Source of the DNA: an uncultured Candidatus Saccharibacteria bacterium
Lineage (GTDB): Bacteria > Patescibacteriota > UBA1384 > DTJR01
Direction: 5' to 3'
DNA: 64,000 nucleotides
Assembly (NCBI GenBank): GCA_964487045.1
Contig: CAZAOT010000001.1
Location: 151,863 to 215,862 of the forward strand
In this document: positions 26,972-62,489 of the stretch, piece after piece
How the letters are laid out: each line of letters starts with the position of its first letter
Position numbering within the stretch: the first letter of the stretch is position 1
The notes under the pieces: model-generated
Seen by the model: the letters and a program-made list of their open reading frames with translations, nothing else
Told to the model about the DNA's origin: nothing
Database searches by the model: none
Translations under genes and position numbers: made by a program

Positions 26972-28189
26972 TCATGCGGCTGACTTACCAGCTAAATATC
27001 CGCTTGACCAGGCCCATTGCAAGTTGAATCCGCCGGAATCGCCGTCAACATCCATGATTTCACCGGCAAAATATAGACTCTTAATTTTCTTTGATTCCAG
27101 AGTCTCGGGATTTATCTCATCGGTAGTAATTCCACCACGTGTCACCTGGGCTTCTTTGAATGGCCTGAGCTTAAGAATATGAAGTGTTAACGCTTTAAGA
27201 TTTTTAACTATTAATTGACGCTCTGATTTAGATATTTCGGCGACTTTTTTCGATTCATTAATATTAGATTCCGCGAGAATTATAGAAATTAAATTGGCTG
27301 GCACCATGCCGACAAGGGCGCTTTTTACACTTTTATGCCCGGCAGAGTTAAATATTTTTGAAATTATTTCATCTAGTTCTTTAGCCGAGTTATCCTTTAC
27401 AAAATCAAGCTCAACCTTGATATTTGCTTTATCAATAAATGGTGCGATAAATCTAGCCTGCGACATAATCGCCGGACCAGAAACCCCATAATGAGTAAAA
27501 ATTAAATCTCCAGATCTTTGAGAAATTATTTTGTTATCGACGAAAAAACTCGCTTGAGCTTCAGCCTTTAGCCCTTGCACATTTTTGACCCAAGACTCTT
27601 TGGTTTCCATTGGGACAAGCGCTGCAAAAGTTGGCTCAATTTGTACGCCTAAATTTTTACTCCAAAATAGTCCATCGCCAGATGAGCCAAATTGATGGGC
27701 GGCTTTGCCACCAGTCGTTAAAATCAATTTTTTGCAGATTATTTCAGATCCATCAGTGAGTCTAATTTTCCAGCCATCGTTTGTTTCAATTTTTTTAACT
27801 TCACTATTGAGTTTGATCTCAACTTCTAACCGGCTAAGTTCGTGAGAAAGAATATCAACTACACTCGTAGCTTGGTTTGTTCGTGGGAACATTCTGCCGC
27901 GGTCTTCTTCTTTTAATATAAGCCCAAGATTTTCGAAAAACTTAATTGTTTCGTGCTGATCAAAAGATTTCAATACTGAACCGATAAATTCTGGATTTGA
28001 ACCATGATAATTTTCAACTTTAGCTAAGCGATTAGTTATATTGCAGCGACCATTTCCAGTAGCAAGAATTTTTCTGCCTATGGCCGGATTTTTTTCAATT
28101 AAAATCACACTAGCGCCGTTTTGTTTCGCAGTAATTGCGGCCATGATTCCAGCCGGTCCTGCCCCAATAATTACTATGTCGTATTTCAT
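26972..28189 (-). CDS. HI0933/BaiN-family FAD-dependent flavoprotein (NAD(FAD)-utilising dehydrogenase)
   Basis: N-terminal MKYDIVIIGAGPAGIMAAI dinucleotide fold. Length and C-terminal GG..DxDGxxGGFNLQWAWSSG are typical of this family. Confidence 0.8.
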   Translation of the reverse strand: MKYDIVIIGAGPAGIMAAITAKQNGASVILIEKNPAIGRKILATGNGRCNITNRLAKVENYHGSNPEFIGSVLKSFDQHETIKFFENLGLILKEEDRGRMFPRTNQATSVVDILSHELSRLEVEIKLNSEVKKIETNDGWKIRLTDGSEIICKKLILTTGGKAAHQFGSSGDGLFWSKNLGVQIEPTFAALVPMETKESWVKNVQGLKAEAQASFFVDNKIISQRSGDLIFTHYGVSGPAIMSQARFIAPFIDKANIKVELDFVKDNSAKELDEIISKIFNSAGHKSVKSALVGMVPANLISIILAESNINESKKVAEISKSERQLIVKNLKALTLHILKLRPFKEAQVTRGGITTDEINPETLESKKIKSLYFAGEIMDVDGDSGGFNLQWAWSSGYLAGKSAA

Positions 28190-28299
28190 CCTGGCAATTA
28201 TAACCTATTTTATGTGAATAATAAACTATCTCACACTTGGAACTGAGACCTTGAAAATAATGAGTATTTAAGATAGAATCTTTACAGCTCATTTAAATA

Positions 28300-28357
28300 T
28301 ATTCCTCGGTACCTGCCCGCCAGAGCCTACGGCTCAGCCGTTGGCAGGCGGGGCTCA
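28300..28357 (+). repeat. tRNA-derived fragment: 12-nt copy of the intron-tRNA 5' end (TATTCCTCGGTA) fused to CCTGCCCG from its 3' region, plus a GC hairpin
   Basis: 28300-28311 is identical to 28636-28647. 28312-28319 is identical to tRNA positions 28893-28900. The fragment abuts the ATG of the GIY-YIG gene directly. Confidence 0.45.
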
Positions 28358-28627
28358 ATGATTTATGATGAAATTGTGAGTAAATTTTGGTTCACTTATG
28401 TTTTGAGAAGCAGGGCCGACAACAAACTTTACTTCGGTTTTACAGAAAATTTGAAAGTTCGCATACGGTTACACAACACAGGCAACGTCCCTGCAACAAA
28501 GAATAGATTGCCTCTTGAATTGATATATTTTGAAGCTTGTCTGAATAAAGATCAAGCGATTAAAAGAGAAAAGTATTTTAAAACTGGGTTCGGGAGAAAT
28601 TTTCTTAATAACAGGATTCAGAGTTGA
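28358..28627 (+). CDS. GIY-YIG nuclease family protein (small YhbQ/UPF0213-like)
   Basis: FWFTYVLRSRADNKLYFGFTENLKVRIRLHN carries the GIY...YIG spacing and a conserved Arg/His. 89 aa. Confidence 0.8.
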   Translation: MIYDEIVSKFWFTYVLRSRADNKLYFGFTENLKVRIRLHNTGNVPATKNRLPLELIYFEACLNKDQAIKREKYFKTGFGRNFLNNRIQS

Positions 28628-28638
28628 CAAATTAGTAT

Positions 28639-28908
28639 TCCTCGGTAGCTCAATGGCAGAGCGGGTGCCTGTGAACCTTAAACGCAGCTTTCCGTCAAAA
28701 GGCGGATTGAAACTTCTTGGGATAACGGTGAAGGCTAAGTCGAAAGATATGCTAATACCGTGGGAACTCCAATTTGGAGAGCGCCGTAGAGACTAGATAC
28801 CAAGATGCCTAAATCGAAAGATATGGCAAAGATATAGTCCACGCCACTAGAAATAGTGGATTAAGTGTAAGCACTAGGTTGCAGGTTCGAGTCCTGCCCG
28901 AGGAGCCA
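28639..28908 (+). tRNA. tRNA gene split in the anticodon loop by a ~195-nt group I intron; isotype unresolved (anticodon region reads CT..TGTAA/GTTAA, so Thr or Asn are candidates)
   Basis: Acceptor TCCTCGG pairs with CCGAGGA, followed by G and CCA. D-arm GCTC-AATGGCA-GAGC. T-arm GCAGG-TTCGAGT-CCTGC. Anticodon stem halves GGTGC (28665-69) and GCACT (28871-75) are separated by the intron. Confidence 0.75.
28674..28868 (+). ncRNA. group I intron (approximate boundaries) inside the tRNA anticodon loop
   Basis: It contains the S element AAGATATAGTCC (exact consensus) and the R/P7 element AGAGACTAGATAC, which gives the P7 pair GACTA/TAGTC. There is P4-like pairing AAAGGCGG / GAGCGCCG. No ORF inside. 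Confidence 0.65.
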
Positions 28909-29160
28909 TGAAAATACTCAAGCAAATTGCTTGAGTTTTTTCATAACTTGGGAAAAGGACTCGATACCTGAGTGCGCAATGCGACGTTCATATAAAAAAC
29001 TATTGTCGCATAGGTTTCCTGCCCGAGGAGCCAAAAGAAAACAGATCACGTAAGTGGTCTTTTTTCTTTTGATTTTTGGGAAAAGGACTCGAACCAGATG
29101 CGAAGTCCTGCTTGCCACTCCGTAGCTTAATAGCGAAGGGTGGCCCGAGGAGCCATGAAA
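28909..29160 (+). repeat. two further tandem copies of the tRNA 3' end (CCTGCCCGAGGAGCCA at 29018 and 29143), each preceded by an inverted T-arm copy and hairpins
   Basis: The unit is TGGGAAAAGGACTCGA(T/A)..., where GGACTCGAACC is the reverse complement of the T-arm GGTTCGAGTCC. GAGCCATGAAAATA is repeated after two copies. Hairpin terminators at 28917-28945. Confidence 0.55.
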
Positions 29161-29241
29161 ATAATTACTATTCTAACCAGTCAGTTGATTGTTTATATGG
29201 CTGGAAAATGGTATTTTATAAGTAATAAATAGATTGAATAA

Positions 29242-31485
29242 ATGGTAGATAACCTCGAGAGCAAAGAGTTCGTTATTAAGTTGCCCCAGCATACTAATTT
29301 TGAGATTAGAGTTTTTGCAGAATTTCTCAAAACTCTTTCTAAAATTTTCAAAAATATTCCTTTTGCAGTATCGCTTAACATGATTAATAAAAGGATATTT
29401 TTTACAGTTAAGGTTCCAGCCAGATATCAATCGGTTATGGAGAACCAGCTTTACGCGGTTTTTCCCAAGATCGAACTCGAAGAGATATCAAGAACTTTTG
29501 ATCCTCAGAACGCTGAAGTTGCGGCTCAGGCTGATCTACGACTGCGATATGGCGACCATTATCCTTTTCAGACGTTTGAGAGCTTGGAGGGGTCGTTTCT
29601 ATCTGACATCTACAACCAGTTTAACAGGCTTACTGCTCAGGAAAAATTCTTTATGCAGCTTAAGATCAAGCCTCTAGATCAAGACAAGGCAATTTTTACG
29701 CTGAAACGTTCAGTTGACTTAAATGTTAAAAACTTCAGGCAGAGGCTAAATGTCGTCGAAGGAATATTTTCCAAAAAGGCTTCTCCAGAGATTCGGGCGA
29801 GGGGAATGTCGGCTGCACAGGAGAAAAATCGCCAGCCACTTTATTTGACCGAGATTGATATCTTATTGTTTTCAGAAAGTTATGAACTAGCTGCAGCAAA
29901 GTTGGAGCCTATTGCTCAAGTTTTCCAGAAACTAGAGAGTGAGTACAACGAATTTAAATACAAAATTAGGACTGTTTCAGTTGCCGATTTTGATCGAATT
30001 ACCTCACTGGAAATTCCAGCAACTGCTTTTCATATGAGCTCAGACGAAGTATCTACGATTTATCATTTTCCACCAGACTCTGACTCGGTTCCAAACCTTT
30101 ATAAAATTCTTTCCCCTAAAGCTGAGCCACCGCTTGGACTTCCGACTGTGGATAACACATCGGCTGATGAGCTTTGTCCCTTTGCTCAAACCAACTATCG
30201 TAACATCAAGGAAAGTTTTGGTATCAAGCGCCGGGATCGACAAAGACATATGTATATCATTGGTAAGTCTGGAGTTGGTAAGTCTAAACTTCAAGAATTA
30301 ATTATCAAAAATGATATCGAAAAAGGTCATGGTATTTGCGTAATTGACCCTCACGGAGACCTGATCGAAAACATTATTCCATTTATTCCGGAAAACAGAA
30401 TTAAAGACGTAATTTTCTTTAATCCAGTTGACGAAGCTTTTCCAATTTCTTTCAACCCGATTGAAAAAGTAAACCCACTTCTTCGTCAGCAGGTTGCCAC
30501 TGGGCTTATAGAAATTTTTAAGAAAGTCTTCGGAGCGAACTGGACACCAAGGCTTGAGCACGTTCTTCGTATGACCCTGCTTGCCCTTCTCGATGCCCCA
30601 AAGGCTTCGATTATGAGCGTTCTTCTTCTTCTAACCGATAGAGAATATAGGCAGGAAGTTATTAAAAGTATTGAGGACCAAGTGGTTAAGAACTTCTGGA
30701 CAAATGAATTTGCTGGTTGGAGCGAGAAGTTCGACTCGGAAGCAATCATGCCTATCCTAAACAAAATCGGTCAATTTGTTTCAAACACTATTATTCGTAA
30801 CATTGTCGGTCAGGAAGATAATAAGATTGTAATGCCTGACATTATGGATAATCGCAAAATTTTACTTGTTAAGCTGCCAAAAGGTATTCTGGGCGAAGAG
30901 AACACTTCACTGCTTGGATCTATGATTATTACTAAGATTTATCAGGCGGCCTTGGCCAGAGCTGATGTGCCTGAGAATCAGCGTGTACCTTTCTACCTAT
31001 ATGTGGACGAGTTCCAAAATTTCGCAACTGATTCTTTTGCCAACATCCTCTCTGAAGCCCGAAAATATAAATTATCGCTTACTATGGCGCATCAATATGT
31101 CTCGCAGCTAAACGATGTAGTTAAGAAAACGGTTTTTGGTAATGTCGGATCGATTTTGTCGTTTAGAATTGGTCCGGAAGATGCACTTTTGATGGAGAAA
31201 GAATTTGAGCCGAACTTTACTGCTCAAGATATTGTAAACCTTGGTGTCCGTGAAATTTATTTGAAACTTTCCATCGACGATGAAGTAAAAGAATCATTCT
31301 CGGCAAAAACCTTGGCAGTTCCAGAGCCTACTTTCAATTTCAGGGAACAAATAGTACAATTCTCGCGTGAAAACTATTGTCGAAATAAGGAAGTAGCGGA
31401 GAAAGAATTGAAGCAAGAGAAATCAAAAGAAATGGAAGTTCTCGAAAAGCTCAAGGAAGAAAATTTCTCTGCACCGATTTTGTAA
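29242..31485 (+). CDS. soluble P-loop ATPase of the TrwB/TraD/VirD4 (type IV coupling protein, AAA10/TraG-D_C-like) superfamily; no TM segments
   Basis: MYIIGKSGVGKSKLQELI...GHGICVIDPHGDLIEN...DVIFFNPVD parallels the T4CP Walker A / 'VIDPxGD' / 'NPxD' block. Later YLYVDEFQNF is a Walker B-like motif, then LTMAHQ. The N-terminal ~330 aa is of unknown fold. Confidence 0.5.
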   Translation: MVDNLESKEFVIKLPQHTNFEIRVFAEFLKTLSKIFKNIPFAVSLNMINKRIFFTVKVPARYQSVMENQLYAVFPKIELEEISRTFDPQNAEVAAQADLRLRYGDHYPFQTFESLEGSFLSDIYNQFNRLTAQEKFFMQLKIKPLDQDKAIFTLKRSVDLNVKNFRQRLNVVEGIFSKKASPEIRARGMSAAQEKNRQPLYLTEIDILLFSESYELAAAKLEPIAQVFQKLESEYNEFKYKIRTVSVADFDRITSLEIPATAFHMSSDEVSTIYHFPPDSDSVPNLYKILSPKAEPPLGLPTVDNTSADELCPFAQTNYRNIKESFGIKRRDRQRHMYIIGKSGVGKSKLQELIIKNDIEKGHGICVIDPHGDLIENIIPFIPENRIKDVIFFNPVDEAFPISFNPIEKVNPLLRQQVATGLIEIFKKVFGANWTPRLEHVLRMTLLALLDAPKASIMSVLLLLTDREYRQEVIKSIEDQVVKNFWTNEFAGWSEKFDSEAIMPILNKIGQFVSNTIIRNIVGQEDNKIVMPDIMDNRKILLVKLPKGILGEENTSLLGSMIITKIYQAALARADVPENQRVPFYLYVDEFQNFATDSFANILSEARKYKLSLTMAHQYVSQLNDVVKKTVFGNVGSILSFRIGPEDALLMEKEFEPNFTAQDIVNLGVREIYLKLSIDDEVKESFSAKTLAVPEPTFNFREQIVQFSRENYCRNKEVAEKELKQEKSKEMEVLEKLKEENFSAPIL

Positions 31486-62412: not shown

Positions 62413-62489
<77 letters not shown>

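What the first reader, a model, noticed from the sequence alone, without database searches (positions are those of the whole stretch)
28299..29160. tRNA split by a group I intron, preceded by a GIY-YIG gene bracketed by a duplicate of the tRNA 5' end and followed by two extra copies of its 3' end
The 5' exon (28639-~28673) and 3' exon (~28869-28908) together give a canonical acceptor stem, D-arm, T-arm and CCA. The two halves of the anticodon stem are about 195 nt apart. The intervening RNA carries the exact group I S element AAGATATAGTCC and an R/P7 element AGAGACTAGATAC, which gives the P7 pair GACTA/TAGTC. It also has P4-like GGCGG/CGCC pairing. The small GIY-YIG ORF (YhbQ-like) sits immediately upstream. 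Its 5' flank (28300-28319) is TATTCCTCGGTA + CCTGCCCG, i.e. the tRNA 5' end and part of the 3' T-arm region joined with the middle deleted. Downstream, CCTGCCCGAGGAGCCA recurs at 29018 and 29143, each after GGACTCGAACC (reverse complement of the tRNA T-arm). Together this looks like a tRNA gene that has been hit repeatedly by 3'-end-targeting insertions, plus an intron. Which anticodon results after splicing is unresolved from sequence alone (Thr or Asn are candidates), so the splice junction matters for decoding.
Basis: partly seen in the sequence, partly recalled or inferred. Interest (0 to 1): 0.75.

Follow-up and report, generated by a model that had tools for sequence, protein, structure and literature searches.

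The report
Intron-split tRNA-Asn invaded by nuclease cassette
A Patescibacteria tRNA-Asn gene carries a known type of self-splicing intron, and it has also been invaded at its 5' end by a small nuclease gene with a GC-rich palindrome, a cassette that sits in front of tRNA genes across this phylum and that I could not find described.

Summary
The tRNA is tRNA-Asn(GUU), not Thr. Its 195-nt group I intron (28673-28867) lies between anticodon positions 35 and 36. This exact class, including ARAGORN's miscall as Thr(UGU), was published and shown to self-splice in 2025-26, so the intron is already known.

The GIY-YIG gene is not the intron's endonuclease. In 63 of 80 related loci, mostly Patescibacteria, a homologous ~78-aa GIY-YIG gene ends within about 130 nt upstream of a co-oriented tRNA. 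These tRNAs cover 14 amino-acid types, nearly all without introns. The gene is typically flanked by a 15-72 bp duplication of the tRNA 5' end, and the upstream copy is split by a conserved ~40-nt GC palindrome.

In the window the duplication is TATTCCTCGGTA|palindrome|GCTCAATG.

The two downstream 3'-end copies end two decayed ~125-nt units. Each holds a terminator, an inverted tRNA 3' fragment and a degenerate direct tRNA copy.

A close relative (L096) has the same tRNA-Asn with no intron, cassette or units, so all three are insertions. How the cassette moves is inferred, not shown.

The parts
28251..28279 (+). Promoter-like site TTGAAA-17-TAGAAT, the native tRNA-Asn promoter. It now heads the stub-GIY-tRNA unit.
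   Evidence: 10 of 12 consensus matches. It aligns to TTGAAA-17-TAAAAT upstream of the uninterrupted tRNA-Asn in relative L096. Function is inferred.
28300..28311 (+). Stub part A: 3 nt of upstream flank plus tRNA nt 1-9 (TAT TCCTCGGTA). This is a direct repeat of 28636-28647.
28312..28352 (.). 41-nt GC-rich palindrome CCTGCCCGCC...GGCAGGCGGG, inserted between tRNA nt 9 and 10 of the stub. It is the only such palindrome in the 64-kb window.
   Evidence: It folds at -26.2 kcal/mol. Searches show it is unique in the window. Homologous palindromes lie beside GIY-YIG genes in most related loci and occur in either orientation.
28353..28360 (+). Stub part B': tRNA nt 10-17 (GCTCAATG), which resumes the interrupted tRNA copy. 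Its ATG is the first possible start codon of the ORF.
   Evidence: junction score 14 of 14.
28358..28627 (+). GIY-YIG nuclease gene: 89 aa from the ATG. Homologues are ~78 aa, so GTG 28376 is the likelier start.
   Evidence: Pfam PF01541, 55.9 bits. The family alignment has 26 invariant residues, all kept here. The nearest solved structures are UPF0213 proteins, SLX1 and the UvrC N-terminal domain, all with weak E-values.
28639..28672 (+). tRNA-Asn 5' exon, ending in CUGU (position U35).
28673..28867 (+). Group I intron, 195 nt. Its helices are P1 28669-73/28683-87 (U28672.G28684), P2 28692-96/28701-05, P3 28716-20/28800-04, P4 ~28725-29/28757-61, P7 28791-95/28835-39 and P9 28844-49/28854-59. 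The terminal omega-G is G28867.
   Evidence: Rfam RF00028, 47.3 bits, E 1e-10. A consensus fold with 4 homologues gives 17 pairs with compensatory changes. The class is published.
28868..28908 (+). tRNA-Asn 3' exon (UAAGCACU ... CCGAGGAGCCA), with encoded CCA.
28908..28944 (+). Intrinsic terminator hairpin 1. It is the centre of an imperfect inverted repeat whose arms are the tRNA 3' end and the start of unit A.
   Evidence: I2; z -7.0.
28948..29033 (+). Unit A: an inverted fragment of the tRNA 3' part (TTGGGAAAAGGACTCGATACCTG), then a degenerate direct tRNA-like body, then an exact copy of the last 17 nt of the tRNA (29017-29033).
   Evidence: (D1, D5).
29032..29071 (+). Intrinsic terminator hairpin 2.
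   Evidence: I3; z -5.5.
29076..29163 (+). Unit B: an inverted T-arm fragment (AGGACTCGAACC, exact), then a degenerate direct copy of tRNA nt 3-30 (CTCCGTAGCTTAATAGCGAAGGGTG), then the 3' end copy GCCCGAGGAGCCA plus the TGAAAATA flank. The flank after it matches the flank of the relative's uninterrupted tRNA.

Best explanation
The locus is one working tRNA-Asn(GUU) gene carrying three independent additions.

(1) A 195-nt self-splicing group I intron lies between anticodon nucleotides 35 and 36. This is the class already described for Patescibacteria. P1 pairs exon CUGU with intron GCAG, giving the U.G pair at the splice site, and splicing restores CUGUUAA.

(2) A selfish nuclease cassette occupies the 5' end. 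It consists of a ~78-aa GIY-YIG gene and a 41-nt GC palindrome. It went in together with a duplication of 20 bp of the target (positions -3 to +17 of the tRNA).
- The upstream copy, split by the palindrome, is a dead stub that keeps the native promoter.
- The nuclease gene now follows the stub, and the intact tRNA starts 11 nt after its stop codon.
- Inferred: promoter, stub, GIY mRNA and tRNA form one transcript, and RNase P releases the tRNA. The nuclease is thus expressed from a tRNA promoter without killing the tRNA.
- Inferred: the cassette spreads like a free-standing homing endonuclease gene, or like a nuclease gene 'inserted with long target duplication'. The nuclease would act at or near the palindrome, since the ORF lies 4-18 bp from it across the family. 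Only insertions that regenerate the tRNA would survive.

(3) Two decayed ~125-nt units lie 3' of the gene. They are built from inverted and direct fragments of the tRNA around terminator hairpins, and each ends in the tRNA's last 13-17 nt.
For: Intron:
- Rfam match with an aligned P3-P9 core.
- P1, P2, P4-P6, P7 and P9 are recovered in 5 homologues, with 17 compensated pairs and an invariant U.G at the splice site.
- The spliced tRNA's six best matches are all tRNA-Asn (74-80%); the best Thr match is 68%.
- The published class has the same site, shows the same ARAGORN miscall and splices in vitro.

Cassette:
- 63 of 80 homologous GIY loci have a co-oriented tRNA starting within about 130 nt downstream, covering 14 amino-acid types. 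Among other ORFs in the same loci the figure is 16 of 1886.
- In 31 loci (29 of the 80 genome loci, plus the window and L066) with clear junctions the stub is tRNA 5' part, then palindrome, then a resumed tRNA stretch of 4-18 nt. Insertion points lie at tRNA nt 3-21 and total duplications are 15-72 bp, sometimes including up to 45 nt of upstream flank.
- The palindrome occurs in both orientations.
- In non-tRNA contexts the ORF lies inside the palindrome's loop. In L080, removing the element exactly restores an AbrB-like reading frame.

Empty site:
- L096 comes from a relative whose neighbouring protein is 86% identical. It has an uninterrupted tRNA-Asn (69 of 75 nt identical) with a homologous promoter flank and 3' flank, and no intron, cassette or units.

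Expression:
- The promoter-like site lies upstream of the stub, and none lies directly before the tRNA.

3' units.
Against: - No expression or splicing data exist for this locus.
- Rfam's score is 2.7 bits below its gathering threshold.
- The cassette's mobility is inferred from architecture and from one filled/empty pair.
- GIY proteins at different loci are 65-80% identical even within one MAG (51 of 77 residues). No recent jump was seen, and the strong conservation could equally mean a host function.
- A 78-aa protein has no DNA-binding domain to give sequence specificity.
- An intact tRNA copy next to the gene means the nuclease cannot simply target the uninterrupted tRNA sequence.
- A second promoter-like site, TTGGCA-17-TATGAT (28341-28369), lies inside the palindrome and stub. 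The GIY gene could therefore have its own start.
- The origin of the 3' units is unresolved.
Confidence: 0.72

Rival explanations
1. The GIY-YIG gene is the intron's free-standing homing endonuclease. It would cut intron-less tRNA-Asn alleles so that the intron and gene spread together.
For: The gene lies 11 nt upstream of an intron-containing tRNA. L066/L085 show the same pairing, and other GIY-YIG subfamilies precede intron-containing tRNA-Asn genes in L090 and L094. There is a weak resemblance to the group I intron endonuclease model TIGR01453 (16 bits against a cutoff of 56).
Against: The same protein family precedes intron-less tRNAs of 14 amino-acid types in 63 of 80 loci. Homologous introns at the same site occur with no GIY gene upstream in L089, L091 and L093. 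The protein has only the catalytic domain. [quoted passage not shown]
Confidence: 0.04
2. The spliced product is tRNA-Thr(UGU), with the intron at 33/34 as ARAGORN calls it.
For: ARAGORN in intron mode returns Thr(UGU) with a 195-nt intron. A U precedes that 5' site and a G precedes that 3' site.
Against: No internal guide sequence pairs with GCCU. The only candidate, GGCGG, is the 3' strand of P2. The CUGU/GCAG P1 with U.G is invariant in the 5 sequences folded together (the window and 4 homologues). The tRNA body is closest to tRNA-Asn. The relative L096 has the same tRNA uninterrupted with CUGUUAA. The published work documents this exact two-base miscall.
Confidence: 0.02
3. The whole locus is a dead, repeatedly disrupted tRNA pseudogene, and a functional tRNA-Asn lies elsewhere in the genome.
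For: Three kinds of insertion in about 900 bp. Decayed tRNA fragments lie on both sides. There is no promoter directly in front of the tRNA. Only 64 kb of the genome could be examined.
Against: Both exons give a perfect cloverleaf with compensated differences from the relative's tRNA: pairs 4-69 and 51-63 change on both sides. The intron core is intact and conserved. The same layout, GIY gene then intact tRNA, recurs in dozens of genomes, which argues that the tRNA copy is kept by selection.
Confidence: 0.07
4. The two 3' units are scars of site-specific integration at the tRNA 3' end. They would be miniature or deleted integrative elements bounded by att-like repeats of the tRNA end.
For: - There are exact 13-20 nt direct repeats of the tRNA 3' end. 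Their bodies have diverged while the ends stay identical.
- The flank of the relative's uninterrupted tRNA matches the sequence after the last copy.
- Similar 3'-end copies lie ~90-125 nt downstream in L033, L041, L056, L082 and L084, and each matches its own tRNA's acceptor sequence.
Against: No integrase or other recombinase lies within about 15 kb. The units are only ~125 nt. Their bodies contain inverted and direct decayed tRNA fragments arranged around terminator hairpins, which fits local hairpin-templated or fold-back duplication at least as well. The unit motif was not found in about 100 other loci.
Confidence: 0.3
5. The GIY-YIG gene and palindrome are a fixed, host-beneficial module of tRNA operons, for example a repair or processing nuclease co-expressed with tRNAs, and not a mobile element.
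For: The protein is strongly conserved, with 26 invariant positions in 78 aa. No near-identical copies occur at different sites. Two copies in one MAG are only 66% identical. Nearest neighbours share a tRNA type more often than chance, 21 of 59 against 7.8 expected.
Against: The gene is present in the window and absent in L096 at the same tRNA. Dead tRNA stubs and tandem stubs occur in L033, L053, L056 and L013. The element interrupts an AbrB-like ORF in L080, and a 5' gene fragment is left in front of an epimerase gene in L007. The family is scattered over 14 tRNA types with a star-like protein tree.
Confidence: 0.15

Closest known systems
Group I introns at position 35/36 of Patescibacteria tRNA-Asn and tRNA-Asp (Nakagawa et al., mSystems 2026, PMC13011429; bioRxiv 2025.07.03.662931)
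   Same: Same phylum, same tRNA, same insertion site. A U ends the 5' exon and a G ends the intron. There is no ORF in the intron. ARAGORN gives the same miscall, Thr(UGU) at 33/34.
   Different: Nothing material differs for the intron itself. That paper does not mention GIY-YIG genes, palindromes or duplicated tRNA ends (0 occurrences).
Free-standing GIY-YIG homing endonucleases among tRNA genes (phage T4 SegB, PMC2330249)
   Same: A GIY-YIG nuclease gene sits between or next to tRNA genes without being inside an intron. It is presumed to spread by cutting DNA and being copied during repair.
   Different: SegB is a larger, site-specific enzyme in a phage. Here the protein is ~78 aa (catalytic domain only) and chromosomal, in a reduced-genome phylum. 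It is always paired with a GC palindrome and a duplicated, palindrome-split tRNA 5' end.
[quoted passage not shown] 2010, PMC2853133)
   Same: A nuclease-encoding gene with no transposase or integrase is flanked by direct repeats of the target. The repeats are tens of bp long and vary in length between events.
   Different: Those are RM systems at arbitrary sites, with repeats of 30-400 bp. Here the gene is a single tiny GIY-YIG gene, the targets are tRNA 5' ends, and a conserved palindrome splits the upstream repeat.
Non-intron insertions encoding GIY-YIG proteins in CPR rRNA genes (Tsurumaki et al. 2024, PMC11270868)
   Same: Same phylum. GIY-YIG ORFs lie in insertions within structured-RNA genes, and the insertions resemble neither group I nor group II introns.
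   Different: Those are in rRNA, and were reported as sparse and 'outside the context of homing'. No tRNA link, palindrome or target duplication was described. Whether they are the same element family was not tested here.
tRNA-targeting integrative elements (tyrosine integrases that duplicate the tRNA 3' end)
   Same: Direct repeats of the tRNA 3' end lie downstream of an intact tRNA.
   Different: There is no integrase, and the intervening DNA is ~110 nt rather than kilobases. On the 5' side the duplication is of the 5' end, which integrases rarely target.

Membership tests
Group I intron (Rfam RF00028) | Conserved catalytic core: P3-P9 with the P7 pairing and the J8/7 sequence | tested here: met
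   One search aligns P3, P4-P6, P8 and P9, with GACUA/UAGUC for P7. One search recovers P4-P7 and P9 in 5 homologues, with compensatory changes.
Group I intron (Rfam RF00028) | Score at or above Rfam's gathering threshold (50 bits) | tested here: not met
   47.3 bits, E 1e-10. No hit appears in the default window-wide scan. The 5' part (P1-P2) was mis-aligned by the model.
Group I intron (Rfam RF00028) | U.G wobble pair at the 5' splice site in P1, and a terminal G (omega-G) | tested here: met
   U28672.G28684 lies within CUGU/GCAG and is invariant in the 5 sequences folded together (the window and 4 homologues). The intron ends in G28867.
Group I intron (Rfam RF00028) | Self-splicing activity | not testable with these tools
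   Shown in vitro for two members of the same 35/36 class by Nakagawa et al., but not for this sequence.
Patescibacteria tRNA 35/36 intron class | Insertion between nt 35 and 36, with splicing restoring anticodon GUU of a tRNA-Asn body | tested here: met
   best matches all tRNA-Asn; P1; the relative's uninterrupted CUGUUAA.
GIY-YIG nuclease superfamily (Pfam PF01541) | Profile match above the curated cutoff, with the family's conserved residues retained (catalytic roles assumed by analogy with known GIY-YIG enzymes) | tested here: met
   55.9 bits against a cutoff of 22.6. All positions that are at least 90% conserved in the family, including the Tyr, Arg, His and Glu residues, are present in the window protein.
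Intron-encoded or intron-associated homing endonuclease (I-TevI-like; TIGR01453) | ORF inside the intron, or the protein has a C-terminal DNA-binding domain and passes the family cutoff | tested here: not met
   The ORF ends 11 nt before the tRNA, outside the intron. The protein is 78-89 aa, catalytic domain only. TIGR01453 scores 16.1 bits against a cutoff of 56.
tRNA-linked GIY-YIG/palindrome cassette (family defined in this report) | GIY ORF ending within about 130 nt upstream of a co-oriented tRNA | tested here: met
   The window gap is 11 nt. 63 of 80 homologous loci meet this, against 16 of 1886 control ORFs.
tRNA-linked GIY-YIG/palindrome cassette (family defined in this report) | Duplicate of the tRNA 5' end upstream of the ORF, split by a CC(C/T)GCC(C/T)G...C(G/A)GGC(G/A)GG palindrome | tested here: met
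   Window 28300-28360, junction score 14 of 14. The same layout is seen in 31 loci with clear junctions (29 genome loci, plus the window and L066).
tRNA-targeting integrative element (att duplication of the tRNA 3' end) | Integrase or recombinase gene within the element | tested here: not met
   No integrase domain was found in the neighbouring ORFs examined (23.5-28.2 kb and 29.2-47.2 kb).
tRNA-targeting integrative element (att duplication of the tRNA 3' end) | Direct repeat of the tRNA 3' end bounding the inserted DNA, with the original flank after the distal repeat | tested here: met
   CCCGAGGAGCCATGAAAATA occurs at 28897 and 29144, and the relative's flank matches the sequence after the distal copy.
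IS200/IS605 or REP/RAYT-type hairpin elements | Y1 (HUH) transposase associated with the hairpins | tested here: not met
   The only associated ORF is a GIY-YIG gene. The resemblance is limited to precise insertion without target duplication of the palindrome itself.

The most novel reading that the evidence does not exclude
The palindrome, with or without the 78-aa GIY-YIG gene, is a previously undescribed class of prokaryotic mobile element.
- It is a GC-rich hairpin that inserts precisely, with no target duplication of its own, into tRNA genes and small ORFs.
- Its nuclease gene sits either in the hairpin loop or ~10 bp beside the hairpin.
- At essential single-copy tRNA genes, only events that duplicate 15-72 bp of the target and so rebuild the tRNA survive.
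- The nuclease gene is left as a passenger on the tRNA promoter.
- The 3' units of this locus could be older footprints of the same kind of duplication-generating insertion.
Probability: 0.4. Interest if true: 0.8.

Novelty: new variant of a known kind. Interest (0 to 1): 0.6.

Why it matters
The intron adds one more member to a class published in 2025-26. It confirms that standard tRNA finders miss or mislabel tRNA-Asn in these genomes.

The cassette is the more useful result. A single tiny nuclease gene with a palindrome has colonised the 5' ends of many different tRNA genes across a whole phylum of reduced genomes.

- It explains stray tRNA 5' fragments and many 'GIY-YIG nuclease family protein' annotations next to tRNAs.
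- It gives a natural example of a selfish gene that borrows a tRNA promoter while rebuilding its target.
- It offers a tractable test case: a 78-aa enzyme and a 40-nt DNA hairpin, to ask how a GIY-YIG domain with no DNA-binding domain finds its site.

Tried and rejected
- Default Rfam and ARAGORN scans miss the split tRNA and the intron. They were found only with the E-value threshold or intron mode.
- I considered the downstream units as tRNAs on the minus strand, as small RNAs with an acceptor-stem mimic, and as hammerhead ribozymes (CUGAUGAG occurs in L033). I rejected these readings:
  - Neither strand gives a cloverleaf.
  - The folds are not better than shuffled sequence (z -1.3 to -1.5).
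  - Rfam reports nothing there except chance matches far below the families' gathering scores, and no tRNA.
  - The units' 5' ends do not covary with the 3' ends between lineages.
  - The hammerhead-like motif is absent from the window.
- I searched about 100 fetched loci for the unit motif TTGGGAAAAGGACTCGA and the unit bodies. Only chance-level hits appeared.
- I looked for orthologous loci through the downstream neighbour, the T4SS-coupling-like protein. In most close relatives a LiaF-like gene, not the tRNA, lies upstream. Only L096 gave the orthologous tRNA.
- L001 and L002 are the same organism and are 100% identical to the window, so they give no information on polymorphism.
- The 20-nt repeat 28249/29153 (17 of 20 matching) that would bracket the whole locus was set aside. 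One copy is the promoter's -35 region and the other is the 3' flank, and both are A-rich.
- NCBIfam, PHROGs and PADLOC give no specific family for the protein.
- Eight literature searches found no description of the cassette.
- Three of the 12 metagenome pattern hits were chance matches: L086, L087 and L092.
Full report
**What is in the sequence**

The window comes from a Patescibacteria (CPR) genome. Homologues of the local proteins are almost all from that phylum.

Between a divergently transcribed HI0933-like flavoprotein gene (26972-28189, minus strand) and a T4SS-coupling-like gene (29242-31485) lie, in order:
- a promoter-like site, 28251-28279
- TATTCCTCGGTA, 28300-28311
- a 41-nt GC palindrome, 28312-28352
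- GCTCAATG, 28353-28360
- a GIY-YIG ORF, ending at 28627
- a split tRNA, 28639-28908
- a terminator hairpin
- an 86-nt unit ending in the tRNA's last 17 nt (to 29033)
- a second terminator
- an 80-nt unit ending in the tRNA's last 13 nt (to 29155)

The repeats exceed chance. CCCGAGGAGCCA occurs three times against 0.14 expected. The unit start TTGGGAAAAGGACTCGA occurs twice against 0 expected.

**The intron and the anticodon**

Default scans miss the gene. With an E-value threshold, Rfam Intron_gpI matches at 47.3 bits (gathering score 50, E 1e-10), with P3-P9 aligned.

ARAGORN in intron mode calls Thr(UGU) with a 195-nt intron at 33/34. Group I rules allow two solutions, because a U must end the exon and a G must end the intron. 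These are CU|...G|UGUAA (Thr) and CUGU|...G|UAA (Asn). Three results choose Asn:
- The only internal guide sequence is GCAG (28684-87). It pairs with CUGU and gives U28672.G28684, immediately before the P2 hairpin CCGUC/GGCGG. In a consensus fold with four homologues this P1 is invariant. P2, P4-P6 and P9 show 17 pairs with changes on both sides.
- The six closest tRNAs among all those in the fetched loci are tRNA-Asn (74-80% identity). The best Thr match is 68%.
- A close relative carries the same tRNA uninterrupted, with a CUGUUAA loop.

A pattern scan of metagenomes returned 9 loci with a true homologous intron at the same site in tRNA-Asn, several of them near-duplicates, plus 3 chance hits.

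This is exactly the class reported by Nakagawa et al. (bioRxiv July 2025; mSystems January 2026). They describe group I introns at 35/36 in Patescibacteria tRNA-Asn and tRNA-Asp, self-splicing in vitro, and ARAGORN/tFind miscalls as Thr(UGU) at 33/34. The intron is therefore real, very probably functional, and already known.

**The GIY-YIG gene is not tied to the intron**

The ORF matches Pfam GIY-YIG. It belongs to a tight family of ~78-aa proteins with 26 invariant positions.

Scanning one genome per GTDB species gave at least 573 confirmed loci, and I examined the best 80.
- In 63 of the 80, a tRNA on the same strand starts within about 130 nt after the gene. These are Lys, Asn, Thr, Pro, Gln, Val, Met, His, Leu, Ala, Phe, Gly, Glu and Ile tRNAs.
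- Two more loci have intron-containing tRNAs (L036, L066).
- Three more end at a contig edge inside a tRNA 5' part.
- Among 1886 other ORFs in the same loci, only 16 have that relation to a tRNA.
- Conversely, homologous introns in tRNA-Asn occur with no GIY gene upstream in L089, L091 and L093.

The association is between the nuclease gene and tRNA genes in general.

**Anatomy of the cassette**

The layout upstream of the GIY gene is consistent across loci.
- There is a copy of the tRNA's 5' end, often with some upstream flank (up to 45 nt in L011).
- That copy is interrupted at tRNA nt 3-21 by a 36-62 nt GC palindrome, CC(C/T)GCC(C/T)GC...GC(G/A)GGC(G/A)GG.
- After the palindrome the tRNA sequence resumes exactly where it stopped, runs for 4-18 nt, and then gives way to the ORF.
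- The total duplicated length is 15-72 bp.

In the window the duplicated 20-mer is TATTCCTCGGTAGCTCAATG, split after nt 12. The same arm flanks tRNAs whose T-arms are unrelated.

The palindrome occurs in both orientations relative to the gene (L043 against L045). This points to a DNA-level or purely structural role rather than an oriented RNA motif. It is the only such palindrome in the 64-kb window.

Several variants occur:
- stub, GIY, stub, spacer, tRNA (L033, L053, L056, L094)
- two GIY copies in tandem (L013)
- a third palindrome-bearing partial tRNA after the intact one (L049, L078)
- the palindrome abutting tRNA-Lys(UUU) between the gene and the tRNA (L006, L036)
- outside tRNA contexts, the ORF sitting inside the palindrome's loop (L035, L076, L079, L080, L007)

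In L080, removing the element exactly restores an AbrB-like reading frame. In L007, a 5' fragment of an epimerase gene precedes the element and an intact epimerase gene follows it. Other GIY-YIG subfamilies with other palindromes show the same stub, palindrome, GIY, tRNA layout (L090, L094).

**The empty site**

L096 comes from a relative whose T4SS-coupling-like protein is 86% identical. It has an uninterrupted tRNA-Asn that is 69 of 75 nt identical to the spliced window tRNA. The differences in stems are compensated.

I deleted four segments from the window sequence: the palindrome, the GIY segment, the intron and the two units. What remains aligns end to end with L096, including the promoter flank (TTGAAA-17-TA[G/A]AAT) and the 3' flank (TGAAAA[GA]TAATTAC).
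- The stub carries the native promoter.
- All three additions are insertions relative to the ancestral gene.
- The original 3' flank now follows the third 3'-end copy.

**How it probably works**

Shown:
- the architecture
- its recurrence across loci
- one filled/empty pair
- intact conserved residues in the protein

Inferred:
- The native promoter drives one transcript covering the stub, the GIY gene and the tRNA. No promoter-like site lies directly before the tRNA, and RNase P would free the tRNA.
- The cassette spreads as a selfish nuclease gene.

[quoted passage not shown] Also close are free-standing GIY-YIG homing endonucleases such as T4 SegB among tRNA genes. The roughly constant ~10-bp spacing between palindrome and ORF suggests a nuclease that binds the palindrome and cuts beside it.

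There are cautions. The protein tree is star-like (65-80% identity). Nearest neighbours share a tRNA type 21 times in 59 against 7.8 expected. Two copies in one MAG are 66% identical. Jumps between tRNA types are therefore ancient, and a host-beneficial role cannot be excluded.

**The 3' units**

Each unit starts after a terminator hairpin. Local alignment against the spliced tRNA shows three parts in each unit:
- an inverted copy of the tRNA's T-arm, acceptor 3' strand and flank (1-2 of 1000 shuffles score as well)
- a degenerate direct tRNA-like body (4-5 of 1000 shuffles). In unit B this is a recognisable copy of nt 3-30 joined to the 3' end.
- the exact 3' terminal 13-17 nt

Similar 3'-end copies lie ~90-125 nt downstream of tRNA-Asn in L033, L041, L056, L082 and L084, and of other tRNAs in L012 and L021. 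Each matches its own tRNA's acceptor sequence.

No integrase is nearby, and no promoter-like site precedes the units. Two origins remain open:
- att-like scars of miniature or deleted integrative elements
- local fold-back or tandem duplications seeded by the terminator palindromes

The perfect ends combined with diverged bodies are not explained by neutral decay alone.

**Novelty**

The intron is already known. For the cassette, eight full-text searches found no description. The tRNA-intron paper does not mention it. The nearest report is of GIY-YIG ORFs in non-intron insertions of CPR rRNA genes.

I rate the finding as a new variant of known kinds (free-standing homing-type nuclease genes; insertion with long target duplication). 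There is a real chance (about 0.4) that the palindrome/GIY element is a mobile-element class of its own.

Noticed in passing
L036:3230-3580: A tRNA-Lys(UUU) follows a GIY-YIG gene. It has a ~200-nt group I-like intron in the anticodon loop and the GC palindrome abutting its 5' end. ARAGORN labels it Asn. Removing the palindrome and intron gives tRNA-Lys(UUU).
   Followed up: partly
L080:2800-3330 and L079:1580-2060: The palindrome with the GIY-YIG ORF inside its loop interrupts small AbrB/SpoVT-like ORFs. In L080, exact removal restores the reading frame (...EKYGW|KEKQK...). This indicates precise insertion without target duplication.
   Followed up: partly
L007:2800-3400: A 5' fragment of an NAD-dependent epimerase gene (MRTFLVTGGAGF) precedes the palindrome/GIY element, and an intact epimerase gene (MNILKNKTILVTGGAGFIGSH...) follows it. 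This is the same 'stub, element, intact gene' layout at a protein-coding gene.
   Followed up: no
L094 (upstream of its intron-containing tRNA-Asn) and L088/L090: Other GIY-YIG subfamilies, with different palindromes (a double hairpin GTCCGAC.../TCCCGAC..., or CCGCCTCCGGCGG), show the same layout of tRNA 5' stub, palindrome, GIY, tRNA.
   Followed up: no
L004:3430-3760 and L061:3330-3560: A second, different GIY-YIG gene lies downstream of the tRNA. In L004 it is followed by a partial tRNA-Lys copy running from the D-loop to the 3' end.
   Followed up: no
L093 (about 50-400 nt upstream of its intron-containing tRNA-Asn): An ORF resembling the four-helix-bundle '23S rRNA intervening sequence protein' lies directly upstream of the tRNA, in the position the GIY gene holds elsewhere. 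The resemblance is from reading the translation; it was not checked against Pfam.
   Followed up: no
L071:2798-2900 and L025:3325-3380: After the intact tRNA there is a partial copy of its T-arm and 3' end, with one or two GC palindromes inserted in the T-loop. This is a 3'-side counterpart of the 5' stub.
   Followed up: no
window:38592-38664: An AdoCbl-II (cobalamin) riboswitch aptamer match above Rfam's gathering score (40.7 bits), upstream of small ORFs and an Nramp transporter gene.
   Followed up: no
window:47218-47292: tRNA-Ile with a genomically encoded UAU anticodon, which is uncommon in bacteria. Two tRNA-Met(CAU) genes lie at 62413 and 63072.
   Followed up: no
window:31503-36673: Three consecutive ORFs of ~570 aa on the same strand, possibly paralogues (not compared). 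The first is Cys-rich. None has a Pfam match above its cutoff; the third has only a sub-threshold treble-clef zinc-finger hit at its C-terminus (19.6 bits, cutoff 27).
   Followed up: no
window:28341-28369: A second promoter-like site, TTGGCA-17-TATGAT, is formed by the palindrome's 3' arm and the stub. It would start transcription at about the GTG 28376 start codon of the GIY gene, which might then be leaderless.
   Followed up: no
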